DNA of 64,000 nt, taken from NCBI GenBank assembly GCA_951804945.1, contig OX638154.1:32736001-32800000 (forward strand), given 5' to 3'. Under the pieces are notes generated by a model. The model ran no database searches. It had not been told where the DNA came from and was given only the letters and a program-made list of their open reading frames with translations. This document shows positions 1 to 64,000 of the stretch, in pieces; positions within the stretch are counted from its first letter, which is position 1; each line of letters opens with the position of its first letter. The DNA is from Podarcis cretensis (lineage: Eukaryota). Position numbers and translations under genes: made by a program.

Positions 1-1009
1 TCTTCTTTTCTGAGAGTAGCCAGACTGCTCTGTGAAGCAAATGTAACCTTCTGCAGCAGCCTTTAAATGTTAGCAAAAGTGATGGGTAGAATGTTTAAGA
101 AAAGGGGAACAAATAACTTACGCAGTAACCAGTTGGAAAGAGACTACTTGGTTTTTTAAAAAATCTATTATGAATATGGAAGAAATGGAAAATACATTTA
201 ACACCTTAAGTGTGGAATCTAGAAACAAGCTCCCATCAACAGATTAGAAAAGCAAAATATTTCTTCCTGAAAATAGCAAAAAACAAAAACTCTGAAATCC
301 AGGAGAACCAGAAATGTAACACCTTAGGAGCTGGCAGATTTATTGGAATATTAATAAACTGGCCAGTCTCAAATTTTTAGAGAGTTTGGAAACAACAGAT
401 GCTGTTCAAGTGTCCTGACAAGCATTCATTTAAAAATGTATGACAAGATGACAAACTCCTTTAATAAATGTGTCGATTTGCATTGTAACACAAGTAGATT
501 TAGATACATAACAGTGTAGATAAGGAATTAATAAATAATGTGATTTTATCAAATTTAGATCTGACTCAAATAATAATGAGATGGGACATTATAATAGATT
601 GAGTAAGATAAAAATTTTAGGTACTAGGGTAAGATCAAGTATCAGCAAGGAGGTGTTTTCAAAGCAGAGCTGCAAGACAAGGATGAAATCCTATTGAGTC
701 CGTATGATGGCAGCATCTTTTAAATAAGTGGATAGTCTGACAGAATTAGATATGGGGCAAATCTGTAAATCTAGTTAATACCATATGTGATCTTGATGAT
801 GTGTTACATAGGGACCACTCAGCTATTAGCAGGAGGCTTCCAAGATGTTTAAAGCAGATAAAGCTTTAGGGGCAATTTTAATTATTTTTAAAGCAAAAAT
901 GGATCGCCATAAGACAGTTATGCAACTTCTAGATTATATCAAGTATTTGCTCTGGAAATTTTATGCTTCTCAGGTGAGTAATTTCAGAACAGTAGCAGTG
1001 TTTGGAATT

Positions 1010-1214
1010 AGATTAAGGTGGGTAGCTGTGTTGGTCTGACGCAGTTGAAATAAATTAAAAAATTGTCCAGTAGCACCCTGGAGACCAACTAAGTTTGTTC
1101 TGGGTATAAGCTTTCGTTGCATGCACACTTCAGATGGTATCTGAAGAAGTGTGCATGCACACAAAATCTTATACCCAGAACAAACTTAGTTGGTTTCTAA
1201 GGTGCTACTGGACA
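1010..1214. mobile_element. Palindromic Penelope-like-element-derived mini insertion, copy 1
   Basis: Inverted arms 1063-1215; 13-bp TSD AGTGTTTGGAATT (997-1009, 1215-1227); degenerate hammerhead core. Confidence 0.75.
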
Positions 1215-1486
1215 AGTGTTTGGAATTGTGCTGAAAAAAAGCTTGATAGTGTGAAAGTTATACCTGGGTGCACAACAAAACCATATTAAGAGTTCCATAG
1301 AATAGCCAAGTCCCAAGCTTGCAACTTGTATGAATATTTTACTCTGCCCAACTCTTTGAAGCCTTTGCAGTGCTACAATTAAATTCACATATAAATCAGT
1401 ATTTGGGGGTGGCAAAATGCATATGAGCAAGTCCTGTCAACCTGCATTTCACTGTTTGTAGCACTTTCACATCTGTTCAGGTTCAT

Positions 1487-1492
1487 TTTATT
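1487..1492 (-). terminator. Candidate MMP24 polyadenylation signal
   Basis: Minus-strand AATAAA ~2.5 kb after stop; would imply a long 3'UTR; not verified. Confidence 0.3.
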
Positions 1493-2929
1493 AATAGTGA
1501 TTGCATGCAAACCACACACAATTTACTGAGGTTTATGTTGGTTCACAGAAGCAACTCCTTGCATGCACTGCTAAAAGTCAACATGGCCTATCTAAAAACC
1601 ATGCTTGCCATCCTCCCCTGAGTTGATACTTAATCAATAGCTGCAAAAAAGGCAAAATGCTGTAGCACCTTACAGACTGCCTTTTTGTGGCATAAGCTTT
1701 CAAGGCAACATCAAATGTATTAAGTGTATCGGCTTTTAAGTATGACATGGCTTCGCTTTTCTAAACTTTCACCTGAAAGTGAAGGTAATATAAGGGAAGT
1801 ATCTTCTAGTTACTGTTACATGCTGAAACTGGGACAATCCAGTGTCTCACCCATAATACCAATTTGATGGATTTGGGATAGTTGTGGGAGAGGGAAGGGA
1901 ATGGAAACCCCACCTTGAATAGTTCATGATTTTTGCCCCAATTTGAGGGGGTGGAAAGCCTAGAGTGGATGTGCAGACTACAGTCAGTGGACATGGGATA
2001 AGCACCTCTCCTCACAAGTGGACCCTGCATCTCCATTATTTTGGCATAAAAAAGGTTGGGATCAGGCCACTAGCAGAACAGACACAGTTGGCAGAATGGA
2101 TTGTCCCATCTCAAAATCAAGTCCAGAGGATTGGGGAACCCTTCATAGCAGATTTTGGGGAAATTTAGGAAAGGAAGGTCTCTGTGATGTTGGGTGTTGT
2201 CCTAAAGAGTTTTGGCAACATGAACTTGTGATAATGAAAATAAAAATTAAAACCCCAAAAGGTTTTTCTCTTATTACATTCCTATACCGTAATTTCCAAT
2301 AGGTCTCTAGCATAACAGCAAGTAGAGAATCTCCTGAAAAGGCAAAAAAGATTGATGTCTTGCCAACAGGAATGACAAAAATATACTGCATCAAAATAAA
2401 CCACCTTGGTTTGTCTAGCCTATGAATAAACCAGAAATACTTAGTTTTTATACCTACCTGGAAAGCAGAGTTGGATAGTTTCTACCAGGCCATCAAGAGC
2501 ACAACTAGTGAATGCCATCCGCTGTAGTAGCCTAAAAGATACGTGCAGCTTTCTCTCTTGTTTTAAAGATACATGTGGCACACCAAGATCGTTTAAGCAC
2601 CGATACTATAAAATATTGCAATTTACTTTATACATTTTGGAGAATTTGTCAGATTAAAGTTTTTAAATTGCAACCTTTAGGATAACCTCCCACTCATGAT
2701 TAAGTGTCTCTTGAATAAACAAATCAGATTTTAAAAACATGAATTTCCTTTTAAATGCCACTCCTTTCCTGCACTACTGCAACTACAGTTCTCATCATAA
2801 TATTGTTAAAGAATATCAAGCATCCTAATGTACATGCCACTTGGCCTCCATTTATAAAAGAAAAAGGATCAAGGGGACTTGTATTTGCAAAGTACCATAT
2901 ACAGTATCAAAGGTGGTATGTTTCCGAGT

Positions 2930-3047
2930 GCCAATCACTGGGGAACCTGCATGTCCTTGTGGCTTGCATCTGGTTGGCCACTGTAAGAACAATGTTGGGC
3001 TGGATGGACCTTTGGCCTTATTCAGCAGGAGCCTTCTTACATTCTTA
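2930..3047 (+). mobile_element. CR1-type 3' fragment in putative MMP24 3'UTR
   Basis: ggttggccactgt...ctggatggacctttggcc...cttcttacattctta; related to 18430-18590 (minus) and 61010-61160 (plus). Confidence 0.5.
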
Positions 3048-3990
3048 AATATCACAGAATTTGCCTTTAATCTTATAATGGTAACAATTAATTTATTGTT
3101 GCCAACTTAAAATAGTGGTAATATGACATTTAAATATTTAGTACATGACAGGTTCTTAAAAACAAAGAGTTTTAAGGGCTGCATTCATGTTAGTGTTCAA
3201 ACCCAATTGCTTAGTCTTGCAGACTGGTTGTATTCACAAATTTCGGTTCCTAGTTGCTGTTGTGATTTGATCTGGCTTTAGAGCTGTTTGAAGTCGTGGT
3301 CTACACAGAATTATCTCCTAAGAGCTCTTTATGTGTGTCTGCCATTGCAGAGTGGGAACATCAGCTAATTACCATGAATGTACAAAACATCTGACCAGCA
3401 GGTATTGGAAAAAAACGGTATCCAGGTAATTGCCTGGTTCCTGTAATAAATTAAAATATTTCAGAATGACTCAGCCTCAGAATGTCTTCTTCAGAAGGTC
3501 CTGAAGTGTTCCTTTTGTGTCCCACAGTATTATCTCTCTTTTTGATGAGACAAGTGTAGAAAAAAACAACTTGTTGAGAGGTGTTTGGCTACACTGGCAA
3601 ATGCTGGGTTTGAAAGAGGGCACTGAAGAAGATTGCTCGGGTGAGTTGAAAAAAGGTTGAAGCAAACTCCTCTTGAGGTCTCTGACACTCACTGAGTGGG
3701 TTGGTGAAAAATGTCACACCAAGACATACACGGCACTGAGGCAGTCAGTCAGAAGGAAAGCGGCTCCACCGTGCAAGGCCACCTGGGTTTAATTGAATTT
3801 TGTTCCTGTTCTTTCAGTCCCAGAATTCTCTCTGACTCATCTAAGTCTCTTGAAGAGTTATGTATGTTTGTTTGGCAGGCTATCCTTCAATCTCCCCCTT
3901 TTTCAAAATGTCTGCAGCCTGTTGCCACCATCCTCAATAGTCGTCTAAGTCTTCTTCCATCTTGTCAGCCCCAACGAGCTGGTGAGCCTG

Positions 3991-4328
3991 TCATACCCAC
4001 TCTTGTACGGGTCGTCTGTAATAGGTCACGCTTTGCTGGACCTCTTTGTTCTTGAACTGGAAGATTGTGTATACCAGGACAAGGATACACAGCGATAAAA
4101 TGCAGGGGATCACGACTGCAATTGCATTGACAGTGCTAGGCACATCGTTTATAGTCACCATAATATCCACATCTTCGTGAGAGAGCCGCCGGTCTTTGCT
4201 CCTTTCAACCTCCTTTTGGTTGCAGCCCATCCAGTCTTTGAGGATTGACCTGGGGTATCCCGGCTCCACAGTCAGCCTCTGGTTATCAAACTTCCAGTAT
4301 TCCTTACCTTTATAAAAGTAGGTATAAA
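3991..4328 (-). CDS. MMP24: MMP24 exon 9 (last): end of hemopexin domain, stem, transmembrane helix, cytoplasmic tail, stop
   Basis: ttccag acceptor; FYTYFYKGKEYWKFDNQRLTVEPGYPRSILKDWMGC...VVIPCILSLCILVLVYTIFQF...YYRRPVQEWV*; 338 nt, phase consistent. Confidence 0.97.
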
Positions 4329-4552
4329 CTGGAAAAGAAAACAGATATTATTCCATTCTGTGCCATTCACATATTCTGGAGGTGTGCAGCGAAGAGAAAA
4401 TATTCTGTATATGGCAGGAGTGGTTATGTTGGAAATACAGATGGTTTGTATGATATTTATTGGATAACAGCAGGGAGGGAAATCTATCTTACCCTATGCA
4501 AAGAAAATAACTTTTGCTTCTGTACTTGCATTCATGGGGATAAGAAAAACTG

Positions 4553-4578
<26 letters not shown>
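4553..4578. repeat. (AT)n microsatellite
   Basis: Read directly. Confidence 0.95.
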
Positions 4579-4828: not shown

Positions 4829-5095
4829 AGCCTTCTTTACTAACAAAAGCTCCTTGCGGGGCTTGTGGGATTCCTTTCCACACAGTGATGGGTTTGGGGT
4901 AGCCGGGATCTGTTGCTCTCTTGTCTTCGTTATACCTCCAATATCGGTCTCCTTTGAAGAAATAGGTTTTGCCTACAGGCTCCCACCTTAAAGCTGTGTC
5001 GATCCCTTCCCGGGGAAGACAGCTGCCCAATTCCACTAGGTTGTGGGGGTACCCTGGCTCTGCAGTCACCTCCTTGAAAACCCAGTATTTATCTC
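4829..5095 (-). CDS. MMP24: MMP24 exon 8 (hemopexin repeats)
   Basis: cctag/gtaagt boundaries; GDKYWVFKEVTAEPGYPH...QAPQGAFVSKEG; 267 nt. Confidence 0.97.
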
Positions 5096-5245
5096 CTAGG
5101 CAAGAAAGCAGCAGAGGAGGGTGGGTAAGACATCTATAATCAGCAACAGTCAATGAGACTTTGCCTTCCTCTGGAACAGGTTTGGGGGACAACAGGAAGG
5201 GGAAGTTCACTCACACAGCATTGGATACAACCTCAAAATGTTTAC

Positions 5246-5384
5246 CTTTAAAGAAAACAAATTTTCCATCAGATCTTTCATAGGCAGCATCAATTTTTGC
5301 AGGGAGCCCTTTCCAGAACTGTTCGATCTGCATGGGGTAGCCTTCTTGCACTCGGTTGTTACGGAGACGCCAAAACCAGCGGTC
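5246..5384 (-). CDS. MMP24: MMP24 exon 7 (hemopexin)
   Basis: ttag/gtaaac boundaries; [46 protein letters not shown]; 139 nt. Confidence 0.96.
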
Positions 5385-6303
5385 CTAAGAGAAAAAGAAG
5401 AAGGGAAAAGAAGAGTCTTGTTAAATGTCTACATCAGATTCCAACATGAAGTGATGAAGTTCATTTTATAATATCACAGCACCCACAGATTTACTAACGT
5501 CAGACATCCCTTTAACTTTCAGATCACTCAGTGTTCCTCTCAGGCAGAATTAGACTCCTCCTCTGCTTTGTTATCTTATATTCGCCACCAGTCATAAAAA
5601 AACCAGTTTTACTAAGCAATAACTGACACCTCAAAAAAAGAGTGCCACTAACTGCCACCTCCAAAAGCTGTAATTTCCTGCCCTGCTCAGAACTTCTTTC
5701 GCTATTCCTGCGACCAAATCATTACCCCAGACAAAATAATAGTGTACTTTATTATGTACGATACGTTTAAACATGATAAACATATGTTTAAAGTCTCAAA
5801 ATAAAATTCAGTAGCAGCACCAGAGTGAATCACAGAGGGATGTGTTCATCTTTTACTCTGAGCAAACCAATGGGTCTACTCTGAGTAAAAGATAATTGAA
5901 TACAATCCAAAGAGTCTCACACATGTCTGATATACACACACTGTTCATTAAGAAGGTAGAATTCTGGAATACTAGAGAAGATTCCTTGATCAGGACAAAT
6001 GCTGAAAACAGGAACTACATCTGCAGAGCTCATTTGGAAGCAAGTGAAAAATTGATACATATTTTTGTCCTAGATTTAAGAAGTTTCACTTAATTTAAGT
6101 GTTACCGAAGGAAACACATTCTTTCAGCTGTCACAACAAACATTCTACTTTATTATCATTTCTTCAGACCAAGACATCTACCAATAAAAAAAACTGCAGA
6201 GATTAAAATACCAAGAAATTTTGGTGGCATTTAATTAATAATACATGCATTTGTAATATATAAAGATTAATGAAAACAGCTTTGACAGGATGATTTTCAC
6301 TAC

Positions 6304-6518
6304 CTTAAAAACAAACATTTCTCCTCTGAAGAGAGCCACAGTATTGAAGTTCCCATCACAAATGTTTGGTTTACTGCCTGGGGTAGAAGGCCTGTCTCCT
6401 AGAGGAGGTCTGGGAGGTCTCGAATGTCTGTCATGCTTTCTTTCTGAAGTAGAATGGATTCTACGAACAGGAAGGGTTGGTAAAGGTCTAGTGGGTTCTA
6501 GTGGCTCAGCAGGTGGGC
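6304..6518 (-). CDS. MMP24: MMP24 exon 6 (Pro-rich hinge, start of hemopexin)
   Basis: ttag/gtagtg boundaries; [20 protein letters not shown]...[22 protein letters not shown]; 215 nt. Confidence 0.96.
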
Positions 6519-6699
6519 CTAAATAATAAAAAAAGAGGGAAGAGAGAAAACTAATTAGCAGCTTGAATATTGTACCCATCATTTGAAAGACCATCACAAA
6601 GCTTGAACACTCCTTCCCATTAAGTTCTCAAAATCCTTCCTTCCACCACAGACATAATCACCATCCTCAACTTGCTGTCAAAATTATTGGCTGTAGATC

Positions 6700-6828
6700 A
6701 CAGAATCATAGAATTGTAGAGTTGGAAGGGATCACGAGGGTTCTCTAGTCCAACCCCGGCAATGCAGGAATCTTTTTCCAATGTGGGGCTTGAACCCAAG
6801 ACCCTGAAATTAAGAGTCTCCTGCTCTC
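6700..6828 (-). mobile_element. Short SINE: tRNA-Lys(CTT)-like head plus CR1-type 3' tail
   Basis: Minus strand agagcaggagactcttaatttcagggtcttgggttcaagccccac resembles tRNA-Lys; ends in ATTCTATG-type repeats. Confidence 0.7.
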
Positions 6829-8824
6829 TCATCCCAATCATGCTCCTACTTTTGTGTAACATCATCTAGCAACAGCACCTGACCTTTGCATTGGAATTGG
6901 CCTGTCCATTTGCCTGGGACCTCATAGTTAATTATTATTAGATCTCTTTCCTACCCTGGACCTCATGGTGGAGGATAGGTAGGAAATCTAATAAATGATA
7001 AGACTCTAACTTGTCCCCAAAGCCACTCTATTTTACTCCTTTGCATCCCAGTACCTCAAAAACTTAATCCAAGAGTCTAACCTAAAGGTTCCCCCCAAGT
7101 AATCTAGGTTTTTAAAGTTCCGCTTGTCTAGGTTGCTGTTTCCAAAATTTGCTGTTGTATCTGCTGTATAGAATATCAGGATCTAAAATCCCAATGAGAG
7201 GTAACTGCTCTCACTGCATAGCAATAAGGCCTTCAGAAGCAACCCTCTGCAAAAGCATACATCAAATTCACATAGTTTATACATATACTTTCTATTCCTT
7301 CGCCACAAACCTTGTAAAGGAATGTCCTATAGCTGGAGTCAGGAGAGGTGTATAAGGTGGAAGTGGCTATTTTCAGGTGGTGAACAGTAGGAGCCAGCTC
7401 CAGATTCTGCATTGGCAATCTAGCCAGCCCCTGGTACTCTTGAGCTAACTGAGACTAGGCATTAAGGTCATATGTTGGTGGTTCAACTGCACTAACTCCT
7501 ACGTCAAAGTGCCAGTTTGGGTTTTTAAAGCTCTTCGCAACTTGGGGCTAGGGTACCTGAAGGACTGCCTGTCTCCACATGTTGGTTGTAATCTATTATT
7601 TGTTTTCCTTATTCTTCAACATCCAAAAGACAGCAGAACTGGCTGCCAGGGGGAAAACCTTCTCGGTGATGACATCCTGACAGTGGAACACTCTTCATCT
7701 TTACTGAGTTCTCATTTTTATGCTGCTTCTCATGTCGTAATCACTGAGGTATTAGAAACCCTCACAAATTAGTTTTTTTGGAACACTGTTACATGGTACC
7801 AGCACCACAATATCCCATTGGAAGGGTGTGGCCTTGCAGCAAGTAGGATAACACTGAAAGGGAGAGCTCTTTTCATGGCTCGTGTGTGTGTGTTTGTGTG
7901 TTTTGCTGCTCTTCTCTTCATTGTTATTTTAAGGGGGTGGTTGTCAGTAAAGATGTGTGTTCCAGTACTGGAAAGGGGGAGTCCATAGAACTACATGGAA
8001 ACAGAAAAAGGAGGCAAAGAATCAAACAGTGGCAGAGTGTTGCTGTGGGAGAAAGGGCAGCATCGCTGGAATTGGCACTATATAAATGATTTCATTTTAA
8101 AATCTGGCTAAGAATTCCTTTCCGTATTGATATTGCAGTCTGAAATACTTCTTAAAATGCTGACAGTTTGGGGGAAGGGGGAGGGAGTAAAAGAGGAAGA
8201 TTGAACACTGAAATATTTGTCAGACTTGAGCAACTATTCTACTAGTTGGTTATACTCACAACAGTTGTGCAGGATGGAAATGGAATATTACCAGTCAGCA
8301 GCATATTACAGTAGGGGGGAAATGCAATTTCCCCATGCAATTACAAGGGAAAGTCACTTCATATGCATCCTGCTCAGTGACCTGTTCATTGCTCACAGTG
8401 AACATCTGGAAAGGCCTCAAGGTTCCCTGATGACAGTATTCTAAGAGTGCCCTGTTTATCAGTTACCAAGATGCAAGACATGGGAAGAGGCAGTTTTCGG
8501 TGACTGCCTTTCAGCTTTGGAATTCAACATTGTTTTTACTGCAGTGTGTCAAACCCAGACCCTGATCATTTTCCTGAAGAGGTTTATTTACACGAACAAT
8601 TGATTGGTAATGAAAAATAAGTGGGAGTTATTTTAAGGGCGCTTTCCCTTGCTATAAGCTTTATTTAAAAAACAAAAACATGGGCACAGTCACCACATGC
8701 CCACACATCCCAGATAAATATATACATCTGTATATTTCAGTAACTTAAGTTGCCTGAGCTTATGGGAGGCGATGAGGAATTGGCATCCTGCCAATGGCAA
8801 TTAATAAACCAGGTTCCATCTTAC

Positions 8825-44495: not shown

Positions 44496-45253
44496 TAATA
44501 AATATGCTAATCTTCTAAGGTGCAACAAGACAGTGTTGTTTCCCCTGCAACACACTAAGTTGGATATCCCAGAGAAAAAAGTTACTTTTGTATTTCTCAT
44601 TCCCCAATAATTTCTGCAACCTCTCTTAGCAAAACATTCCATCAAAAGTTGGTAGTTTAAGTGTGGTAGTGGCATAGGTATCCAGTCAAATTTACAATCA
44701 AAGTTACCTATGCTTTCCAGACAAGTAGCCTGGTTAGTATGTTGCAGCAAAAGCAATAGTCCTGTGGCAGCTTAAAGAGTATGGTAAGATACTATCTTTC
44801 TTAGAGACTGTTTGACATTACTCCTGATTGTGAGAACAGGAGCAGATTTCAGTATACTCCCCCCTCCCCCAATCTCTGCATATAAGCCAACATCCAAACC
44901 GGGGCAGAGGGCACAATTATTTTAACATGGATCTCCGATGTTCCTGGATATCAAATCTGTTTTGCACTGTGCATTCAATATCCATAACACATCAAGGGAG
45001 ATCCCCATTCCAACAGCAGTGGAACTCCACTCAGGAACTCCCTCCATTCAGGAACTTGCCATAAAAAGAACAAGGAGAACAGAAAGGAAACAAAAACCTA
45101 AGTGAAATGAAAGGAGAAAGTAAAGCCCCAACAGCTGAAAGTATAACTATGTACCACTGAATGACTGATCTAGCAATAATAATTAATAATGATGTCATTA
45201 TTTGCACCTTGCCCATGTGACTGGGTTGCCCCAGCCACTCTGGGCAGCTTCTA

Positions 45254-45658
<405 letters not shown>

Positions 45659-45759
45659 TTATTAGTACTTATTTCATTTAACTTTCTATGAAGCATCTCA
45701 AAGTGGCTTCACAATACTGCATGTATACAAACAGTAATTATATATATAAAACAGTTTCA

Positions 45760-46600
45760 AAGCCAATACAGACACTGTTTGGGATAAAAATCTCCACTTA
45801 GAAAGTTTTTTGAAAGAGGAAAGTTTTCAACAGGAACTGAAAAAAACAACAACAAACAGTGCCTCTTTGATATGAAAGGTGGGGAGGGAGTTCCAAAGGG
45901 TAGGTGCCACCAGACTAAAGGCCAGATTTCAACGTTGTGCAGAACAGACCTCCTGATAAGATGGTATTTGCAGGATGCCCTCATCTGCAGAGCACAGTGA
46001 CTGATTGGGTATGTAAGGAGTCTTTTATGTATCCTGGTCCCAAGCTGTTTAGGACTTTGTACCAGCATCCTGAACTTAGCCTGGAAACTAACTGGCCACC
46101 AGCGAAATTCTTTCAGAAGTGGTGTAATATGATGGCAGGAAGCCACCACATTTTACACGAGTTGCAGCTTCTGGGTCAACCTAAAGGGCAGCTCCATGTA
46201 GAGTGCACTGCAGCAATCCAAACTGGATTTTCCACACGTGGGTGTCAGACTACCCCATTCTAGAAATGGTTGTAAACGTATTACCAGCTGAAAGCACAAG
46301 GCATCAAGGTCACCTGGGTCTCTAGTGAAAGAGATGGATGCAGGCACATCCACAGATCCGGTATCGGAAACCACCCTACCAACAGTGTTTCTGTCTTGTC
46401 AGAATTCTGAATTAGTTTGTCCAGCTCACTGCCAAATCCAGGTGCCAGTCCAAGGTTTGCCCAGCCTCTCCCAAATCAGATGTTAGAGAGAAAAAGAACT
46501 GGAACCATTAGCATACACATGACACCTCACTCCAGATCCCCTAATGACCACTCACAACAGCTTCATGTAGATATTAAATAGGAGAGTACACTGTGATCCC
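45760..46600 (-). mobile_element. Old L2-like LINE 3' fragment
   Basis: SSLDCCSALYMELPFRLTQKLQLV; HHITPLLKEFRWWPVSFQAKFRMLV; boundaries approximate. Confidence 0.75.
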
Positions 46601-47272
46601 CCTTAGCACAACTGCTAGGGGTGTTGAGAGATAATCACCTCAAATCAACCAAATTGATCACCATCAGTAACGAGGGGGACTTGCACGGCTTAAAAATAGA
46701 ATTTGCAAACAGAAAAATGGTATCCAAGAGTTTCACTCTTTCCTATCCTATAGTTTGGTTAAATGATTCTCTTCAGCAAGCCACTGAGTTTTATTTTAAG
46801 GACGGCCCTCTACCAGCATTATGCAATAAAATGCCATGGGACTAACTATGTATGCAGAACCTGATACTGATAGGTACTCCAGTTCTCAATCTGGGTAAAA
46901 GTTACACCATTACTCAACCCAGCTACTCAGACCAGCAACAGGGTCTCTGGTTTTCATGACCCTTTAGTGGGTGGTAACCTCTTGTCAGACCATCAATAAG
47001 AGCTAGCCAACAATCAGATTTCCATTCTCGCCCTGCTAAAAACTACGAAGTGCCACTACACTATCCTCTTAAGATACATTTTATTTCAAAATAACTTTTT
47101 TATGAATTTTGTTCTACATCCCTCTATCAACTCTTGAAAGAGTTAAAGTAGTTGCGCAAGCAGAACTAAATGACAGCAACAACCGGAGACAGTCATGTTC
47201 AGGATCTGGGTCATTATTTACATTCATCAAGAGCCACAAACGATCTTTCATTCAGGAAGGAAGGTGCGTTAC

Positions 47273-47429
47273 CAATATCAAGAGGCTGATCGGAATGTGT
47301 TCGAAGTGGAGGTTGCTGTTTTCTTCGTACTATCTCCACGATCAAAGCTGAGGAAAGGTGTTCAAATTCTTTCATCATTATTACTTGATTAAAGTGTGAT
47401 TCTTTTACTACAAAATTCAGGCAGTGTTC
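47273..47429 (-). CDS. LZTR1: LZTR1 exon (human 16 equivalent)
   Basis: [52 protein letters not shown]; tttag/gtaacg; 157 nt. Confidence 0.96.
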
Positions 47430-47634
47430 CTAAAGGAAACAAATAATTGTTTGTCATCTGAAGAACCACCACCACTTTAAGAAAAACACAAGTCTGTCAT
47501 ATTTCTCTTGCAATTTATATTTGAAGAATCTACCAGCAAGTCTTTTCTCCCTCAGAATGTTCTAGAATGGGATTTAACCAATTTGGACTAGGGTTTTTAA
47601 ATGAAATCTTATTCATAGTCTTGCACACACCTAC

Positions 47635-47804
47635 CTTTAGCTGATCTAACTGAAGTTTGTTCGCATTTTCGCACACAACAAGCACATTCTGCAGATCGAC
47701 TGAGGCCTCAATATACTGGACACACAGCTGTTCCAGTCGTGAGAGTTTGAAGTTAAGGGCCAATTTGTACACATCCATGATTAGCAATACATCTTGCACG
47801 TGCC
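47635..47804 (-). CDS. LZTR1: LZTR1 exon (human 15 equivalent)
   Basis: [57 protein letters not shown]; tacag/gtaggt; 170 nt. Confidence 0.97.
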
Positions 47805-48082
47805 CTGTACAACACAAAAATATATATAAAAAATAATTTAATTTAATGTACTTAAGACAGTGAGAAAAGTGTGACAGCAGGCAGGGAAAGGTTCCCTGTT
47901 CCAATATTAAGAACAACTTAATTGGGCTCTACTAGCATAGTATGAAAATGCCCTTGAAGCACAGATAAATAACAATGTGTTTATGGATTGAAACTACATA
48001 GTTATTATGTGAAGAAACTCTGAAAGAGGCTGAGACAGAAAATTTACACTTCTTCTCCCAGGAAGCTATTCTGCTACCCTAC

Positions 48083-48266
48083 CTCTGCGTGGGTATTTGA
48101 TTTTGTCGGTGTACAGGAACTGCATGAGCACCTCAAAAGGCTGGGCTTCAGCTTCCCGGATGGTCACCTCCAGCAGCGGCTGCAGGCGGCACAGCTTGAC
48201 ATTGTTGCCTGCTGTCTCCATCTGGGGTGTCCCTTCTACTTCTTCATCAACATCTTGCTTAGATTT
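48083..48266 (-). CDS. LZTR1: LZTR1 exon (human 14 equivalent), first BTB
   Basis: [61 protein letters not shown]; gttag/gtaggg; 184 nt; 5' linker is divergent so acceptor less certain. Confidence 0.9.
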
Positions 48267-48830
48267 CTAACATCACAATGGGAACAAGGAAAGACTGAAC
48301 CATCTGGGCAATCTTACAGCACAACAGCACCCCAAAACCATTCATGCATTTAACCATGTACAGACAATATCACGCAAACCAACTTTTGTTTTTAACGTAA
48401 CTTCAGTACTAAAAACCTAGAATGGGGTCACCAATGTTGTGCTCTCCAGATGTTGTTAGGCTAGAACTCCTATCAGCCCCAGCCAGGATGGCCAATGTAC
48501 AGGGATAATGACAGTTATAGTCCAACAGCATTCAGGTAATCATGCTAGCTATCCCTCACCTAGAACATCCTGTTTCTTAAACAAAACAAACAATTCTGAC
48601 ATAGGTGCTCATCCAGGTTAACGGAATCCAATCACAGCGTCTGTCTTTCAATTTATCAAGACAAACTTATGATAGATATTGCTGTGCCATGTCAATGAAA
48701 CTGCAAATCTGGAAGTCATGAGATTAACCACAGAATCAATTCTTCAAAATGTTTTTCAGAATGCATGCCATGACAATGACTGCTATAATAGCTAATCGTC
48801 CCACAAGGAAACCTTCTCAGCAAATCATAC

Positions 48831-48926
48831 CTGCTTCAATCTCTCTCTTGCCTGTGTAATTTTCTTCCTGAGCCACTTACAGCGGGCTGTGACAATGGCT
48901 GTATGTCCTCGCACTCTTTCTTCCTT
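48831..48926 (-). CDS. LZTR1: LZTR1 exon (human 13 equivalent)
   Basis: [32 protein letters not shown]; gacag/gtatga; 96 nt. Confidence 0.95.
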
Positions 48927-49075
48927 CTGTCAAACAGTTGAGAGAAAAAGAATTACATTCTTTGACAGTTATAGGATTTGACAGATAGCTGAATTTTAAA
49001 ATCTTTTAACTTGCTGCAGTAACAGCTGATGAGAGGCAACACAGCAAAAAAAACCCTTATTTTCATTTTTAAATA

Positions 49076-49223
49076 CATGCAATTCTCCATTTACATGGGA
49101 GTTATGTTCCAAGGCACCGGGAAGCCCATAAGCCCGCCCCATGCTGCCCCTTTGCAATGCCAAAAATGGCGCGTGCATCAGCGGTGACGCACATGCCAAC
49201 TGTGCGAAATGGGGAGGTACCTG
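49076..49223. mobile_element. Degenerate Tc1/mariner-type MITE
   Basis: TA flanks; imperfect inverted ends (..ccattt.. / ..aaatggggaggtacctg). Confidence 0.4.
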
Positions 49224-49752
49224 TACAAAATGAGGAGATTGCTACAGATGTGCAATAGCTAGTATAAACCTAACATTATTTCAACATTTTCCAACATCAA
49301 TATTACACCATCCATGTTGATATCATGCAAACGTTAACATATTCTTGCTGGCAACTTTTAAATCCTGAAACCAGGGGTATAAAAAGTGACAAGCAGAGAT
49401 AATGGGCAATATCCAGTTAAGGATACTATAAGTATATCCACAGAAATCAATGCATTTAAGTTCAATGGGTCTACTCTGACTGGACCTCACTCAATGTACT
49501 ACTCCATTTCCCTATTTCCTAAATAACAGTGGAATGTGCCACTATCATACCTACCCCTATAACCTATACATAGAGAAAACTCTTCAGTGAAAAAGCACAT
49601 AAAAAGCCAATTTGCAACCTCTGTTTCTCTCCCTCTCTATCAAAGTACTGTATATAATTAAAAGTATCTGATGTAGTATTGTATCACAACTGTATCTCTT
49701 TAGCCAGGAAGGAAACAACTTCTGCTCAACATTTCCATTAGAACACACTCAC

Positions 49753-49845
49753 CTCTCCAAGAACAAATTCCAGGTCACTGAATTGCCTGTTTTCCCACAG
49801 TCTTCCATAGTCATCATGTAAAGTGCATTTGGGATAACAAGAAAA
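49753..49845 (-). CDS. LZTR1: LZTR1 exon (human 12 equivalent)
   Basis: [31 protein letters not shown]; ttcag/gtgagt; 93 nt. Confidence 0.96.
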
Positions 49846-50795
49846 CTGAAAATAAGAGTTGAAGTCCTGTTAAAAGTCTGAAATGGAAAGGTTCTGTCGT
49901 GTTGCCGTATTACAAAAGTGTAATTATTAAAGTTGCCATTGGAACCAATGTATTGTTGCAGTATATAGCAGCCAGCTGTAGAATGACTTACAACATTTGA
50001 ACAGGAACAGAGCGAAAGAAGCATCCAGGCCTAATTCACAGGTGCCAACAGCGGTGTAGGTGGCCACTTGAAATATAACCAAGTGGGGGCAACTCTGCAT
50101 GGAAAGCTATCTGAAATGTGTGTAGTATTAGTGAATTTCAACATACATCAACACAAATATACAAAAAATAAATAAATCGGGAATATATGAATAGCTAGAA
50201 TAAAAGTATTTCACATGAACAGCTTGTTGCACTGAGCCATCTCAGAATAGCTGTGTTCAAGCAGCCACCCACATCACTTCTTATATTTGCAAATCAAGTT
50301 TTCGCTAAGTAGGCAGAGGATAACACATTTCCATGATGTACTTGTGATTCTATGATGAGATGCCATGTGCTCAGGTAGAAGGATATATGCTCTGGCAGGG
50401 AAGTTTGCATATATCAGCCAGGTGCAGCAAAAATTAATATGAAGCTCCTGTTACATTTAAGCATCTTTGTTTTCGATTCATATGGGTGCAAACTCATACT
50501 GGCAACTATTTTGGAGAGCTGCCTAATGCTATTGTTATGGATATGAATGTTGACATATATGTGGCACTCACTTCCTGGTCACAGGGCCATGCTTCAAGAT
50601 GAGTTGTTTAAAGAACATTGTTTGAAATGTTGATGAAATGGTCGAACTTACGTTGATTAAAGTTTCACGTTATAATTTAGAATGAAGCCAAACATAAAAA
50701 CTTTTAAAATAAATTGTTCTTTGCTGTTAAACTTGGTCATTGGGGAAAAATAATAGTTATCATAATCTTAAATGAAATGAACACCAGTGGTTTTA

Positions 50796-50915
<120 letters not shown>

Positions 50916-51103
50916 CTAGAAGGGGAGGTTGGGGGGAAGACACACAACATGAGCAGACAGTGTATCTGTCAAATATATAAAACAGAGATTTTTCAACCCA
51001 AAGGCCACATTTCCCTGATGGCAACTTTCTGGGGGGTTATTCAGCAACATCTGGAGGGCTAAAGGTTCCCCACACCAGATTTAAATCTTAATACTTTTTT
51101 TAC

Positions 51104-51305
51104 CTCGCTATCTGGGCTTGGCTGGATAACTTCCCATGTCTGAGAATCTACATCATAGCAGTGAAGTTCATTAGGCAATGTGTTGTCCGCAGCGCCACCA
51201 AACACATAGAGATGGCGATCGAAGGCAACCATTGTGTGACCATATCTCCGCTGTGGGGGAGGAGGAGAGCCCCGCAGTAAATGCTCAGTCGGAATTCTTG
51301 TCCAA
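51104..51305 (-). CDS. LZTR1: LZTR1 exon 9 (Kelch)
   Basis: [67 protein letters not shown]; ttcag/gtaaaa; 202 nt. Confidence 0.97.
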
Positions 51306-51553
51306 CTGAAGTAGAAAACAAAAGGTTTCAGTGGCTCAGTCCCTAAAGACACACATGAATCCATATACACAACTATGTTATCTTTCATTCTCATAGCATA
51401 CCACAAGCTGTAGTATGATATCAATTTTATAGCTCTTTTTATGTGTATATTATGTGTTTTGGATCTGTTGTCTTGTCTAAGATGCAATACTCACTCAGAC
51501 TGCAATCCTAATGATAATCCTGAATACAGTGGGATTATTTCTGAATAGACATA

Positions 51554-51898
51554 AAGGTAAAGGTAAAGGGACCCCTGACCATTAGGTCCAGTTGTGACCA
51601 ACTCTGGGGTTGCGGCACTCATCTTGCTTTATTGGCCGAGGGAGCCGGTGTACAGCTTCCGGGTCATGTGGCCAGCATGACTAAGCCACTTCTGGCGAAC
51701 CAGAGCAGCGCATGGAAACACCGTTTACCTTCCCGCCGGAGCGGCATCTATTTATCTACTTGCACTTTGATGTGCTTTCGAACTGCTAGGTTGGCAGGAA
51801 CTGGGACCGAGCAATGGGAGCTCACCCCGTCGCAGGGATTCGAACCGCTGACCTTCTGATCGGCAAGTCCTAGGCTCTGTGGTTTAACCCACAGCACC
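51554..51898 (-). mobile_element. Sauria SINE flanked by long direct repeat
   Basis: Tail and B-box present; flanks duplicated (51367-51553 / 51899-52088). Confidence 0.93.
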
Positions 51899-52926
51899 AC
51901 ACAACTTTGTTATCTTTCATTCTCATAGCACACCACAAGCTGTAGTATGATATCAATTCTATAGCTCTTTTCTTTATGGGTATATTATGTGTTTTGGATC
52001 TGTTGTCTTGTCTAAGATGCAATACTCACTCAGACTGCAATCCTAATGACAATTCTGAATACAGTGGGATTATTTCTGAACAGACATACGATTGTGCTAT
52101 TTCTTTTAAACTTATTTTAAATGCATTGGTACAATGAATTTTGCTTGTAAGCAATAAATGTAAACATTTGCAACATATGGGAAAGAAGTACAAGCTTTTG
52201 TCTGAGTAAGTGACTTTAGTAGGTACATATATTATAAGTGCCCCAATATACATCAAGTGAGCAGAACAACAGTCTGTAATGACAATCCTTGCCCTTCATG
52301 GGCGAGGAGAGCTATAGTGCTTTGGCTTTCTGGCCCCAACCTGGTGTGTCAAATGCATTAACAATGCATGATGTCATCTCACAATATTATTACACAAAAG
52401 CAGGGGTGGCTACTCCCAAACTGGGGGCCTAATTCAGTACCCAAACAAGTGTTTATACTCTCACGGTCCCACTAACTTTGATGGGAGCAGAAAAAATATA
52501 AAAGCAGACACAGTGCTGGGGTAGGAAGAAGAGGCTTAAAACTGCTCCACCCAAGTCCAAATGAGAATCAGCTGCAGCTACAGCCCCCTTTACATTTTTA
52601 TTAGTATTTTCATACTTTTTCCTATTGAATTGACCCCCCCCCCCAATATTTTTGTGGGCACATTATAAAAATCACATTAAATACTTCAACTGCTTCTATT
52701 TCACAGTACAGGCAACCCCCAATTTGAGTGGGGGTTTTCTTCCTGGTTGTCACGTGCGATGGCAGAGCACACATAAGTCCGCCCTGCCTTTTACACCCTC
52801 GTCTGGGTCCAAAAATGACACACACATGCACCATCACATGTGCTTTGAACATGCACAAAATGGTTGTTCCTGTATTATTTTTAATTCAGCCACAATTTGG
52901 ATTGGGTTGGGTATTTTGATACTCAC

Positions 52927-53066
52927 ATTTTTTCCTTGAATTCAAACTGAAAAAGATTATTGGTGATCTTTGCTCCGCTCTGACCAGAGAAGACAAACAT
53001 CTTCTCTTTGCAAACAGCTACAGGAAAATTGCAACACGAAGGAGGAATCTCACCCGTTTGCTTAAT
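52927..53066 (-). CDS. LZTR1: LZTR1 exon 8 (Kelch)
   Basis: [46 protein letters not shown]; ttcag/gtgagt; 140 nt. Confidence 0.96.
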
Positions 53067-54134
53067 CTGAAAAGCAGCAACACAAAATAGACTATATTTC
53101 ATCTTGAAATTAAGTCAAAGGTCAATTTCAAGTTTGGACTGCTCACTCAAAACATATACATATACAAAACATATACAACTATGTTCTTAGCAAACCATGC
53201 AATCGTTACATGCCCCAAATGTATTAAAAACATAAACCTTACTAATATCTTGCAATACAATCCTATACATATTCACTAAGAAGTATGAGCCACTGAGGTC
53301 AACGAGGTTTACTCCCATGTAAGCAGGCATAGGACTGCAGCCTTGTTTACTTAAGGTACAATCTACCAGGAAATACATAGGTGGAATGGAAGTAACTGCA
53401 CACACCTAGTTATGAACATTGGTTCTCTACTATCAGTGTCACATGATGAACTAAGTTTGAAACTTTGGAAACTTCACTAATAAGATATTGCCAACAACAG
53501 TTTTTGCACTGAATGTTGGTGATAAATTATATTGTAACAATGACGCATGTGGATCAAGAATATTCTTGGCAAATTCAACTATTCATTGTTTACTACTACA
53601 CCAAAACATATAAAATTCAATCATTATTTAACTTAAACTACTGAGTTAAGCAGTAAAGACATCAACTGAGAAGGATAGCAGCACAGGTGTTCGGTTGTAT
53701 GAAAATGTAAGAGTTTAGGTCATGCAAATATGCAGGAGTAGATTTCAGAATCCTGAAAAAGTTTTAAGCTTTGAAAACATTCAGCTTTAGTAAGTTCATA
53801 GCCCTTGTTATTATGAAGAAATGTTGAAAGTATGTAAGCAATATCTATTGGTGGCTCAAGTTATTTGGGTCCATCTGAATGCATCTCCCCTTTTATTAAA
53901 ATTTAAAAGTATGCTATTCCATATTTTCTCCAACCTGAGAATGATCCAAACAGCCTTCTGTATCCATGGTTCTCTAGCAAGAACCCTTGCTCAGCACTAA
54001 AAGACACCTTCCTCTCCACATGAAGGAGGCAGGGGAAGAGAAAGGCTACTCATGCTGTGCTGCTAAGCTCTTGATACAACAAGCTCCCTCTTCCCCAATT
54101 CTCTGGCAAGTGCAAAAAACTTGGAAGAAGAGAA

Positions 54135-54242
54135 TGGATGGCCATCTCTCCTAGATGCTTTAGCCGAGATTTCTGCGTTGCAGGGAGTTGGACTAGATGA
54201 CCCTTGGGGTCCTTCTAACTCTACAATTCTATAATTCTATGA
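54135..54242 (+). mobile_element. CR1-type LINE 3' end
   Basis: ttggactagatgaccctt...attctataattctatga terminal repeats. Confidence 0.65.
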
Positions 54243-54495
54243 GAAGGCTCTGTGATAATCCAAACCACCAGTCCACAATTCGTGGACCCTTGGATTCAAT
54301 AAAGAATGTGTGGCAAATGCTCCATTATAAATGTATATCAAAGCCATCAGGGTGTTCTGGAGAAATGGTTAACCTTCACTGTTACCGAGGAATTTAATTT
54401 TGACAAGACTAAGCTTTTCTAGATCAGATAAGTGACACAAACTATATCAAGCATTAAAATGAATAGTTACTTTTTAAAATATCCATTTCTCTTAC

Positions 54496-54553
54496 CTCTT
54501 CCCAACAAGTTAAATCCCTGTCTTGTAAACTAATGGTCCACATGTCATTGAGT
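54496..54553 (-). CDS. LZTR1: LZTR1 exon 7
   Basis: [19 protein letters not shown]; gcag/gtaaga; 58 nt. Confidence 0.95.
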
Positions 54554-55368
54554 CTGCATCAAGAGGAAAGATCAATTTTAAAATACTCTTTAAAAGCTGA
54601 TCACAACCAGACTGGAGTATATTTTACTCCTTTCACATATATAATAAGATTCCTTCCAATTTGGAGACTGAATAAAGACCAACCTAGACATTACAGATAC
54701 ATGCATGCAACAAACCTCTCTGACCTTTCCCCCTACAAAAAGCAGCTGTGGGGAGAGGGGAATATGAAATGGAGAGACAGTATGGGAATTAGCCACTTCC
54801 TTTGTGCTGCTCCCCACACTCCTGACGTCAGCAAGCCTTTTATTAGGGACTGAGCCTTAAGTGTGGCAAGCCCTGTCCTGTGGAACTCATACTCTCGCCT
54901 CATTTTATGAGTTACACTGCCTTTCTGTATGTTATGAAAATGTGGTTTCTAATGTTTAAATAAATAAAAGTGATTAGCAAGGCGTTTGGCACAAAGCATA
55001 TTATTTCTAGTTTGTTCTTGTCTGTACAAGAGGCTCTAAAGGATGGGAATTATCAATTACCAACAATGAAAATATTTTAAAACTACTTTAAACATGTTAT
55101 TTGATCTTCCTTCACATCGGTTTCAGTTGCTCAATAAGCTGCACACATGCCAGATCAGGTCTTATTAACTACAAGTTTCTAGATGTCATCATGGTCCGAC
55201 TCTAAACTTAAAATACTAATTAAGAAAACAGTAGGCTCTAGCACAGATGTCCTAAGAGAGAAGAGTTTTTGTTACAACTCAGAAAGAAACTCAGAAAGTT
55301 TCATATTTAACAATACTGAAGCTGGATTATTGTGTGTGAACCAGAAGAGACCAGAAAAATGCTACCTA

Positions 55369-55470
<102 letters not shown>

Positions 55471-56193: not shown

Positions 56194-56421
<228 letters not shown>

Positions 56422-56471
56422 CTATCAGTAGAAAACACAGCCTAAAATTCAACTTTGATGCTTTTTTAAAG

Positions 56472-56499
<28 letters not shown>
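56472..56499. repeat. (CA)n microsatellite
   Basis: Read directly. Confidence 0.95.
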
Positions 56500-56504
<5 letters not shown>

Positions 56505-56815: not shown

Positions 56816-56995
<180 letters not shown>

Positions 56996-57462: not shown

Positions 57463-57579
<117 letters not shown>

Positions 57580-60113: not shown

Positions 60114-60176
60114 CCATTATCCCCGCCGAAGACGTAGATGGCGTCTCGATAGGCAACCACGGTGTGTTTGCTGCGG
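60114..60176 (-). CDS. LZTR1: LZTR1 exon 2
   Basis: RSKHTVVAYRDAIYVFGGDNG; ctcag/gtgagt; 63 nt. Confidence 0.96.
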
Positions 60177-60807: not shown

Positions 60808-61322
60808 TTAATAAAAATCTTAGGAACTGCCACACTGAAGGTCCTACCGCGCCAGACGTGCAGCACTTTCTTCCCAGCGCGCCAAACAAGACCTGGATGT
60901 TTGCTTCAGAAATGGTCATAAAGATAAATAAGAGCACTGTGGTGGAGAGTTAATGCAAGAAACGTAGCTCTTGGTTTAACTGTGGCATTCAGCCACAAAC
61001 ATTTAAAAGGGCGTTAGCCAAATTCATGGAGAACAGGGCTTTCCATGCCTACTAGTATCGGAGGCAGTTTAGGAATCGTAAGCTGGGAGAGAAGAGCGCA
61101 GCTGGCTGGCCCTTGTGAGCGCAGGATGCTGGACTACATGCGCCTTTATTTTAATTCGGGCTCTTCGAACGTTCTTAAGAAGCATTTAACCATCTTTAGC
61201 AAACAGAAAACTGCTCTGCTCTGTAAGCCCCGAGAAAGACAGCCTGCTTTCCACATTGGTGCTAAAACCCTTAAGAAGCAAATCCAGAAAAACCAGTCTT
61301 AACTTGAATTTTCTCACTAAGA

Positions 61323-61496
61323 TTCAGGTGCTGGTCTGACGCAGTCGAAATAAATTAAGAAATTGTCCAGTAGTACCTTAGAGACCAACTAAGTTTGTTC
61401 TGAGTATAAGCTTTGGTGTGCATGCACACTTTTGCATGCACACGAAAGCTTATACTTTCCAGGTGCTACTGGACGGTTTTTTAATTTATTTATTTA
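61323..61496. mobile_element. Palindromic Penelope-like-element-derived mini insertion, copy 2
   Basis: Near-identical to copy 1 over the left arm; 13-bp TSD TTTCTCACTAAGA (61310-61322, 61497-61509). Confidence 0.75.
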
Positions 61497-64000
61497 TTTC
61501 TCACTAAGACTCCGGATAGCATTTAACTAGTGTTTATCAAGCTTCCCTATGTCCAATAAGGCAAAAGAATCACATGAAACAGGTATCAAGTTCTTGTGAA
61601 TAGAGAGGAGATAAGATTAAGAGCCGTTGGAGGTTGTATGCCTCCTGCAGCCCTGTTTCGTTAGAATGCACAGAATCAGAGTTGTACCTAATCAAGTTGT
61701 ATTATTTGTGGAACTGTTATCAAGAGCATTAGCTAACACTAGGCAAAATCTTGATGATGCAGCACACTCAGGATTGGAATTTTGAGTCTTGGAAAGATCA
61801 AGATTGGCAAGCATTTTCCCTGCATTAGAATAGTAGAACAATAGTTCGTCGCAGACTGGTTTTTAAAAGGGCAGGCAGATGCCCTGGAAAAAGCTTGCAA
61901 ACCAGGCATGATAGCTAGAAATGCAGTGCTTGCCAAATATTGTGGGTGTATGACAACAAACACATGTAATTTTTAGGCACCAGTGCCACACCTTCTAATA
62001 TCAGGTAGCTAGTAGCCGGTAAACCAGGGCTGAGGAACTAATGGCTTTCCAGCAGCGGATCACTGGCCATTGTGGTTGAGGTTGATGGGAGATACATCTG
62101 GAGGGCAAGATACCGCATCCTTGTATTTAACAATTTTATGGCAATTAAATTCTCTATTGGATAAATACATCCTTCCAGTTATCTTTTCCTGAGAGCCCTT
62201 ATGTAGACTGGATTGTATTATGCTTCTCACTGCCAGGGCTAAAGAACATCAGGAACTAAGGCTGCAGTCCTATGTACTTACCTGGGAGTAATACGCATTC
62301 AATGCAGGACTTCTAGAATTCCACTCTAAATTGCTTGTTATGATTCTTTACCTGCTAGATTGATAAGGCAACATGCACATGTACAGATGCTGGCCAGACA
62401 ACAGTGCAAAGTTAACCAAATGGTAAGCCTTGTTGTAAAACTAAATATAGAACATATCCAGGATTAGTCGTCAGAATGCAGGCAGGAGTTCCTGCATCAT
62501 TTAAGCAAATAGATGCATAGTAGCACAGGAAGGCTTTTGTGTGTAGAATAAAGCAGACACTGAACATTTATAGTGTTTATTAAATTTTATCTACATAGAA
62601 TCAAGACACAAACAATATTTATGGATAGCTTTAGCTCAGTTTCTAAAATTGCATTTGACCAGATCTAACCTCTGTTCAATTTATATGAAGCTCAGAGAGT
62701 TCCTCAGCAAGATAAATACATATAAAAAGGGGGAAGTTGCTTGCATTTTCTTTCATCAAGGAGTCTGGCATAGATGTATAGCAGGCATTCATTTTAAGGA
62801 GCAATAAAAACATGAGGTACTCAAAGTCCATCCTTTAGTGTGCAAAGATAGTTTAAGGTTACAGGATGATTTTTTAAGGGACAATGAATGTATGAGACAT
62901 AAGCTGTTTCTAGTATCCTAAATAATAGTTTAATATGCTATCCTGAGCTATTAACTCCTGAGTTTACATTTTAGCTTTATGTACTTCAAACACAGGATGT
63001 TGTGATTTTTACAGTTCTATGTAAAACACATTTTATAGACATACCTTAGAAAAGGAAACAGAAGGGAAACCATTCAAGTGGATGTTTCACACTTGGGGTA
63101 GAACCAAACATAGCACTAAATCTTGCACAATGGAACCTCTTCTTCCTCTCCCCACCCCATGTGTGCCCCCCTAAATGTACTCTAGAACATTTTTGGGGAG
63201 GAGATTCCTGTTGCACAAGCAAAAATCCTTGTGCTAGCAGGGCATGGTAGTTGAATCCCATCCGTAGTCTTTAAAGTTGGTTGTGTCACAAGATTGTTCT
63301 CAGCTAACTGGTCTTTTTTCAAGTTTCCTAACTTGCACAAAAAAGCCTTAAGGCATTTATTTTTTACAGTTCAATGGAATATTTTTGGCAAGACAATAAA
63401 AACAAAGATTATCTTTTAAAGAATTGCAAATGTCGTAGCTTTCGATACTGCCCTCTTCAAGAAGTTGGCGTCACTATTTGACATCATTTCCATAAAATAG
63501 TCTTTATTCAGCTTCAATTTAGAAATGGTTTATAAGCTATTAAAAAAAATTCTTTTTCTCAGCTATCTCCAGTCTTGCCGCCTAGATGGTTGTTACAGGA
63601 ATAAGTAGGAGGAATACCCCTCACTAAACATATATACATAGGTTTTTATTAGGAAGACATTTAAGATGGCTAACTTCACAAGAATGTCAGCTATCTATAT
63701 GATTTGTCTAGGCACAGTGGTCCTAAATTTATGGAGTGCTAGAAATTGCATGTTTTATGCCACCCTCTCATATACGACTATGAGAGAGATGACTGATAGG
63801 TCAGACCATTGCTTTCACTTCAGCTTCTTTGCCCTAGCCTAATATTTGCCTGAAGATACACATGTGGTTAACTGCTATTTTCGCAATTTTCTGGAAGTGG
63901 ATACATAGCAAACAGGTTATTTTTTTTAAATCTTCATGCAGTAAGCATTTTTTTAAAAAAATCATGTTGTGCAGTAATAGATTAAGTTGGTATGGACTGA

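What the first reader, a model, noticed from the sequence alone, without database searches (positions are those of the whole stretch)
997..1227. Hairpin-shaped mini retroelement carrying a minimal hammerhead-ribozyme fold (copy 1)
Seen: a ~205-bp insert between perfect 13-bp direct repeats (AGTGTTTGGAATT), of which 1063-1215 is a long imperfect palindrome. The right arm reads GGTAT-CTGAAGA-A-GTGTG(CATG)CACAC-aAAA-tCTT-ATACC (1136-1175). The left arm on the minus strand and copy 2 supply GAAAGCTT at the two variant positions. Consensus: stem I GGUAU/AUACC, core CUGAAGA, stem II hairpin, GAAA, loop-less self-complementary AGCU stem III, cleavage triplet CUU. Established: Penelope-like elements carry minimal type-I hammerheads that act as dimers via a palindromic stem III and often leave inverted terminal repeats. 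Inference: this is a non-coding, ribozyme-bearing, trans-mobilised short element with a ribozyme on each strand; both arms here have core lesions so this copy is probably inactive.
Basis: partly seen in the sequence, partly recalled or inferred. Interest (0 to 1): 0.7.

Follow-up and report, generated by a model that had tools for sequence, protein, structure and literature searches.

The report
Penelope retrotransposon fold-back stub
This 205-base hairpin is a real insertion made of two head-to-head copies of the end of a known kind of jumping gene (a Penelope-like element); both of its ribozyme motifs are broken, and it was likely built afresh at this site when the copying enzyme ran off what is predicted to be the capped start of the element's RNA.

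Summary
The anatomy is confirmed: 13-bp target duplication, hairpin z = -17, and a minimal hammerhead motif on each arm, both broken. The reading as a discrete mini-element family is not supported. The arms are the 3' end (pLTR plus tail) of a Neptune-type Penelope-like element; an intact 910-aa RT/GIY-YIG ORF of a sister subfamily lies in tandem elsewhere in this genome. Among 94 sampled loci, 43 are fold-backs and 51 single arms; 41 of 43 centre junctions differ; long copies show the same layout. So hairpins are likely made anew at each insertion. The ends are not random: 41 of 94 arms start 32-38 nt before the cleavage site and only 3 at it. That spot lies ~31 nt behind a TATA-like box and often carries an extra G. 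The tail sits on one arm (34) or none (9), never both. Likely mechanism: two cDNAs primed from opposite target strands run off the capped, uncut RNA start and join. Layout and ribozyme are published; I found no paper on the start-site pile-up, but this scan noted it before in other genomes.

The parts
997..1009 (+). Left target-site duplication (13 bp)
   Evidence: Sequence. Family TSDs of 8-15 bp in 42 of 94 loci versus 7 of 300 mismatched-flank controls.
1010..1135 (-). Left arm: inverted PLE 3' end, from family position -32 (cleavage site = 0) to the tail end (+107)
   Evidence: Aligns to the family 3' end at 88%; matches the parent tandem element.
1010..1047 (-). One-sided 'tail' (approximate bounds); in full-length elements it runs on into the ORF, and in the young subfamily it encodes the first ~12 codons
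   Evidence: tail definition from PMC8557442 and PMC11167929.
1100..1135 (-). Left-arm minimal hammerhead relic: 3-nt deletion removes A9, 1-nt deletion in stem II, stem I 5' strand shortened
1136..1136 (+). Extra G at the junction, absent from the parent; inferred to be copied from the RNA cap
   Evidence: Parent T in 48 of 48; G in 16 of 29 arms starting at -34/-35, p = 7e-5. The cap origin is inference.
1137..1214 (+). Right arm: sense PLE 3' end from position -34 to about +43, no tail
1137..1174 (+). Right-arm minimal type-I hammerhead relic (predicted cut between 1170 and 1171); G12>A at a CpG and G15.2>U
   Evidence: the CpG at -9/-8 shows C>T in 14 and G>A in 10 of 48 copies.
1215..1227 (+). 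Right target-site duplication (13 bp)
61310..61509 (.). Copy 2: independent fold-back of the same family (about 61320-61496) with its own 13-bp repeat (61310-61322, 61497-61509); neither arm has the CUGAAGA core

Best explanation
The insert is a head-to-head pair of short copies of the 3' end (pLTR) of a Neptune-type Penelope-like retrotransposon, flanked by a target duplication, and was likely assembled at this site in one insertion event rather than copied from a hairpin master. Shown: parent family with RT and GIY-YIG endonuclease, variable junctions, both arms from the same subfamily, a tail on at most one arm, inner ends piled up just 5' of the ribozyme, broken ribozyme cores. Inferred: a TATA/initiator promoter in the pLTR starts a capped RNA at about position -34; the endonuclease nicks both target strands; RT starts internally at two sites (the tail end and the A/T-rich stretch before it), one from each nick; both cDNAs run off the uncut RNA 5' end, copying the cap as an extra G, and are joined by microhomology or a short filler. 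The stub lacks the upstream promoter and would be a dead end; the hammerhead is a passenger.
For: Parent: walking upstream from copies reaches a CxxC linker, GIY-YIG and RT. L257 holds two intact 910-aa ORFs in a 3011-bp tandem, 99.97% identical, Pfam RVT_1 and GIY-YIG. L255 shows the window's own subfamily running from tail into the ORF start. L121 has the same TSD/tail/inverted arm/sense arm/TSD layout with arms of ~0.47 and 2.9 kb. 94 loci (first 100 of 1175 exact matches to a 3' 31-mer): 43 fold-backs, 51 single arms; 41 of 94 anchor arms start at -38..-32 (20 at -34), 3 of 94 at -2..+2; 41 of 80 ends within -60..+12 fall in those 7 nt, p = 4e-21 against uniform. Extra G in 16 of 29 and 4 of 5 in a second sample. 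ORF-bearing copies L248 and the duplicated L253/L254 also start at -34 with an extra G. Tail on one arm 34, none 9, both 0 of 43; 6.7 doubles expected, p = 7e-4. Non-majority alleles shared by both arms: 57 versus 14.9 +/- 3.5 in 2000 permutations, 68 hairpins. PMC11167929 reports for an anole PLE in vitro: both strands nicked and extended, two internal RT starts defining the tail, uncleaved RNA the main template.
Against: No RNA 5'-end data: the start site and cap are inferred from spacing and one extra base. Position -34 is also the exact 5' edge of ribozyme stem I, so a structure-based stop is not excluded. 23 of 94 anchor arms and 23 of 43 partner arms end in the palindromic stem II, which fits fold-back self-priming as well as twin priming. 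13 of 29 arms at -34/-35 lack the extra G. No TSD of 8 bp or more was found in 52 of 94 loci. The in vitro support comes from another clade (Poseidon). The sample is from one contig and anchored on one subfamily; ends are BLAST-defined.
Confidence: 0.75

Rival explanations
1. A discrete non-autonomous hairpin element (SINE/retrozyme-like) is copied as a unit in trans by the PLE enzyme.
For: Thousands of short copies (3049 first-look candidates); preferred ends; about 6 of 18 loci with this copy's junction share a clean -32/G/-34 join; non-autonomous PLE derivatives are published.
Against: 41 of 43 junctions distinct. The 18 junction-sharing loci differ in subfamily, tail side and outer ends, and their flanks share only other repeats. 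Stubs lack the TATA-like box. Single arms and ORF-bearing copies share the same ends.
Confidence: 0.07
2. Same PLE origin and de novo assembly, but the -34 hot spot marks an RNA-structure or processing boundary (nuclease or RT stop at the folded, protein-bound ribozyme, or a splice acceptor), and the second arm arises by fold-back self-priming of one cDNA.
For: -34 is the first base of stem I. A pyrimidine tract plus AG lies just upstream, and in D. virilis the intron ends at helix I. Many junctions fall in the stem II palindrome. PMC3846280 proposes self-priming.
Against: Splicing predicts starts at -35 with a shared upstream exon: 6 such starts versus 20 at -34, with no shared upstream sequence seen. 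The extra G and the TATA spacing are unexplained. Junctions with both arms near -34 and filler bases do not look like simple snap-backs.
Confidence: 0.15
3. The ribozyme cuts the RNA and the cut end defines the insertion ends (retrozyme-like cycle).
For: The core is well conserved in the family; 3 of 94 arms start at the cut.
Against: Most arms, including both here, extend 5' past the cut site, so their templates were uncut. A uniform spread would put about 5 ends in those 5 nt; 3 were seen. No tandem short units at these loci.
Confidence: 0.02
4. A TIR DNA transposon (MITE).
For: Short palindromic element with flanking direct repeats.
Against: Outer ends are asymmetric (one-sided tail), TSD length varies 8-15 bp, and the sequence is contiguous with an RT/GIY-YIG ORF.
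Confidence: 0.01

Closest known systems
Complex insertions of endonuclease-bearing Penelope-like elements: inverted 5'-truncated copy, 30-40 bp one-sided tail, TSD (PMC8557442, PMC3846280, PMC8969392; passages read)
   Same: Head-to-head inverted pLTR, tail on one end, variable TSD, tandem full-length units, TATA-like box ~20 bp before an initiator-like motif, tail covering the ORF start.
   Different: Here both arms are under 130 bp, with no ORF; in the passages read, 5' truncation is described as variable, with no pile-up at one position and no extra G.
Minimal hammerheads of metazoan PLEs (Cervera and De la Pena 2014, PMC4209133; parts 1-2 of 4 and one supplement file)
   Same: CUGAAGA core, extra A before stem II, G10.1-C11.1, GAAA, palindromic 15.2/16.2 with no loop. 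The listed turtle motif has the same layout, with stem I GCAU/AUGC versus GUAU/AUAC here. Pairs on opposite strands 100-700 bp apart were already noted in Schistosoma.
   Different: This lizard-type motif was not found in the supplement file searched (file 1 not searchable); both arms here are broken.
PAc (Poseidon of Anolis carolinensis), Frangieh et al. 2024 (PMC11167929; parts 1-2 of 4)
   Same: Tandem pLTR-ORF layout, ribozyme in the pLTR, tail bounded by two RT start sites, uncut RNA as template.
   Different: PAc is Poseidon clade with its ORF starting in stem II. This family has the CX4CxxC linker (Neptune/Nematis type) and its ORF starts in the tail, about 60 nt past the cut.
Non-LTR retrozymes (bioRxiv 10.64898/2026.07.22.740005; part 1 of 5, passages, Discussion)
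   Same: Short, non-coding, PLE-pLTR-derived, type I hammerhead.
   Different: Retrozymes are head-to-tail tandems with complete ribozymes; this is a head-to-head pair with broken ones.

Membership tests
EN+ Penelope-like element (family of origin) | Single ORF with RT and C-terminal GIY-YIG endonuclease | tested here: met
   910-aa ORF, RVT_1 E 9e-12, GIY-YIG at its cut-off; in the parent, not in the window copy.
EN+ Penelope-like element (family of origin) | Tandem units forming pLTRs; inverted 5'-truncated copy; one-sided tail; variable TSD | tested here: met
EN+ Penelope-like element (family of origin) | [quoted passage not shown] | tested here: met
   CxxC between the VY and YIG motifs in the ORF; definition. 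The histidines were not aligned formally.
Neptune clade | CX2-5CxxC motif in the RT-EN linker | tested here: met
   CX4CxxC upstream of the EN. Shared with Nematis according to PMC8557442.
Neptune clade | RT phylogeny places it with Neptune | not testable with these tools
   No Repbase/Dfam reference proteins were available; the clade name rests on the linker only.
Minimal type-I hammerhead (family level) | CUGANGA, GAAA, NUH, stems I and II, palindromic stem III | tested here: met
   Core intact in 26 and core plus stems in 24 of 48 copies; stems I and II form in the lowest-energy fold of a natural copy.
Minimal type-I hammerhead (window copy) | Intact catalytic core on either arm | tested here: not met
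   G12>A and G15.2>U on the right; A9 deleted on the left.
Minimal type-I hammerhead | Self-cleavage as dimer or with protein | not testable with these tools
   Needs an in vitro assay.
Non-LTR retrozyme | Head-to-tail tandem of at least two units with complete ribozymes | tested here: not met
   Head-to-head, broken cores; definition.
Discrete non-autonomous element (SINE-like master) | Copies share one internal structure and both ends | tested here: not met
   41 of 43 junctions distinct; 18 loci with this junction differ otherwise.
TIR DNA transposon / MITE | Symmetric terminal inverted repeats and fixed-length TSD | tested here: not met
   One-sided tail, TSD 8-15 bp.

The most novel reading that the evidence does not exclude
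These stubs are an in vivo record of how PLEs insert: the protein binds the capped leader of its own uncut RNA, primes from both target strands at two distinct internal start sites (hence a tail on one arm only, never both), and runs off the cap. The conserved hammerhead would then not make the template end, and most copies would be strong-stop-like products of the leader.
Probability: 0.5. Interest if true: 0.5.

Novelty: new member of a known kind. Interest (0 to 1): 0.3.

Why it matters
The single copy is dead repeat DNA of a published kind. The family statistics bear on two open points stated in the papers read: how inverted pLTRs and tails form, and what the PLE hammerhead is for. They give a precise, cheap prediction (capped start at -34, no ends at the cut site) in a genome that still holds intact tandem ORFs. 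They also warn annotators that such hairpins can be mistaken for MITEs or microRNA precursors (sub-threshold Rfam miRNA matches).

Tried and rejected
Rfam scan: no hammerhead match; mir-559 and mir-568 matches lie far below their gathering scores and reflect the hairpin. PDB sequence search with the parent ORF: one weak RT match, E 0.07. Sequencing runs: no RNA holder listed; all runs laid were contigs, which cannot show starts or strand. No empty site was seen: in the 4 runs of other organisms laid, contigs run from the left flank into the insert, in 3 of 4 also from the right flank, and none spans it. Cofolding two natural units gave an intermolecular stem II duplex, not the double hammerhead, and the 4-bp stem III duplex is only -2.5 kcal/mol; the folding model cannot judge dimer activity. 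Look-up of earlier findings by sequence gave one unrelated note. Literature searches with no hit; some searches gave the papers cited. Splice-acceptor and cleavage-defined ends were considered and disfavoured. In one search, 11 of 30 loci were dropped as already in the 94-locus sample; that sample requires an intact core, so it cannot show ends at the cut site.

Full report
1. Observation. The 205-bp insert (1010-1214) lies between perfect 13-bp repeats and folds as one hairpin, z = -17.1. Positions below are relative to the predicted ribozyme cut (first base after it = 0, window 1171). The right arm runs from -34 to about +43, the left (minus-strand) arm from -32 to +107, and one G lies between them. 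Copy 2 (61320-61496) is a second, differently joined fold-back without a core.

2. Family and parent. The genome is 1.5 Gb; I take it for a lizard from recalled SINE motifs, which no call names. It gave 3049 first-look candidates for the insert, 1175 exact matches to a 31-mer of the arm and 372 exact intact 35-nt cores. Some copies continue upstream of the ribozyme. Following them gave a 3' UTR, a GIY-YIG endonuclease with a CX4CxxC linker, and an RT. L257 holds two intact 910-aa ORFs in a 3011-bp tandem with three pLTRs. It belongs to a younger sister subfamily; L255 shows the window's subfamily with the same tail-to-ORF junction. L121 has the window's layout at full scale: 13-bp TSD, tail, inverted arm, 2.9-kb sense arm, TSD. 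This layout is the published PLE signature.

3. Is the hairpin a family of its own? I took the first 100 of the 1175 matches (contig 1; 94 loci after merging 6 two-arm pairs). 43 have an adjoining inverted arm and 51 do not. 41 of 43 junctions are distinct; the two repeats lie at the stem II palindrome and differ in their outer ends. This copy's 18-nt junction occurs 18 times genome-wide, itself included, in different subfamilies, with the tail left, right or absent. Across 68 hairpins pooled from three searches the two arms agree in subfamily (57 shared non-majority alleles versus 14.9 expected, maximum 28 in 2000 permutations). That fits one template type per event; alone it would also fit masters or later conversion. 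Together with the junction data it points to repeated de novo formation.

4. The ends are not random. 41 of 94 anchor arms start at -38..-32, 20 of them at -34; 23 end in stem II, where the palindrome blurs the join; 14 extend beyond -60; 3 start at the cut. A TATA-like box begins at -67/-65 and an initiator-like motif lies at -37. The base before -34 is T in 48 of 48 longer copies but G in 16 of 29 arms that start at -34/-35 (p = 7e-5) and in 4 of 5 in a second sample of 19 loci. Among 20 loci found with the ORF start, L248 and the duplicated L253/L254 begin at -34 with the extra G, and L242 begins at -35, so ORF-bearing copies share the hot spot. In three of four runs laid on copy 2, loose-end consensus follows the family to -34 and then disperses (9, 9 and 16 contigs; 2 in the fourth); these may be the same orthologous loci. 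At the outer end, 34 of 43 hairpins carry one tail, 9 none, 0 two (p = 7e-4).

5. Mechanism. Shown: items 2-4. From the literature: the anole PLE protein nicks and extends both strands, starts at two internal RNA sites that bound the tail, and uses mostly uncut RNA (PMC11167929). Inferred: -34 is the capped start of the pLTR transcript; two cDNAs, one from each start site and each target strand, run off that end and are joined. The window copy would be the near-complete case, with both arms reaching the start and the cap G between them. The stub has no TATA-like box and would not be copied again. In a read-through RNA the arms pair; forcing stems I and II raises the energy from -119.5 to -86.7 kcal/mol, so even intact arms would be locked. 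Weak points: no RNA end data, -34 is also the edge of stem I, and stem II fold-backs allow self-priming.

6. Surroundings. The insert lies ~2.8 kb past the stop codon of a membrane-type matrix metalloproteinase gene on the minus strand (MMP24-like by recall) and ~3.9 kb past the last coding exon found of a convergent gene (EIF6-like by recall). It is present at this site in four other organisms' runs, so it is old. One run guessed to be RNA covers both flanks but not the flanks of copy 2; this is a weak hint of transcription only.

7. Known and new. The motif class (PMC4209133) and the layout are published. I found no paper on the start-site pile-up, the extra G or tail exclusivity; the library lacks most subscription journals, Repbase and Dfam, and I did not see the supplements of most papers or of the preprint, which may name this family. 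My reading was noted before I looked at earlier scan notes. Those notes report the same reading in other genomes; they are unchecked and not independent support.

8. Verdict. A real, dead PLE fold-back stub: a new member of a known kind, interest 0.3. The value lies in the family-level mechanistic clue, not in this copy.

Noticed in passing
window 51367-51553 and 51899-52088: A ~187-bp direct duplication (about 95% identical) flanks a ~345-bp SINE-like repeat (Sauria SINE by recall): an unusually long target duplication or a local duplication at insertion.
   Followed up: partly
L257 (G000:C14:51054500-51063500), ORFs 1840-4572 and 4851-7583: Tandem PLE with two intact 910-aa ORFs, 99.97% identical units; the family was recently active.
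   Followed up: yes
window 500-1700: The insert lies between two convergent genes' 3' ends; a run guessed to be RNA covers both flanks. If transcribed, it would form a ~75-bp double-stranded stem.
   Followed up: partly
L229, L236: Two of 18 junction-sharing loci are interrupted in the sense arm, at different positions, by the same SINE-like repeat.
   Followed up: no
L230, L231, L042, L060: Some junctions hold several short re-copied pieces of the region around -34, which suggests repeated template jumps at the RNA 5' end.
   Followed up: no
   Followed up: partly
window 45251-60807, minus strand: Kelch-repeat gene (Pfam ATRN-LZTR1 propeller below cut-off; LZTR1-like by recall); copy 2 lies just upstream of it.
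   Followed up: no
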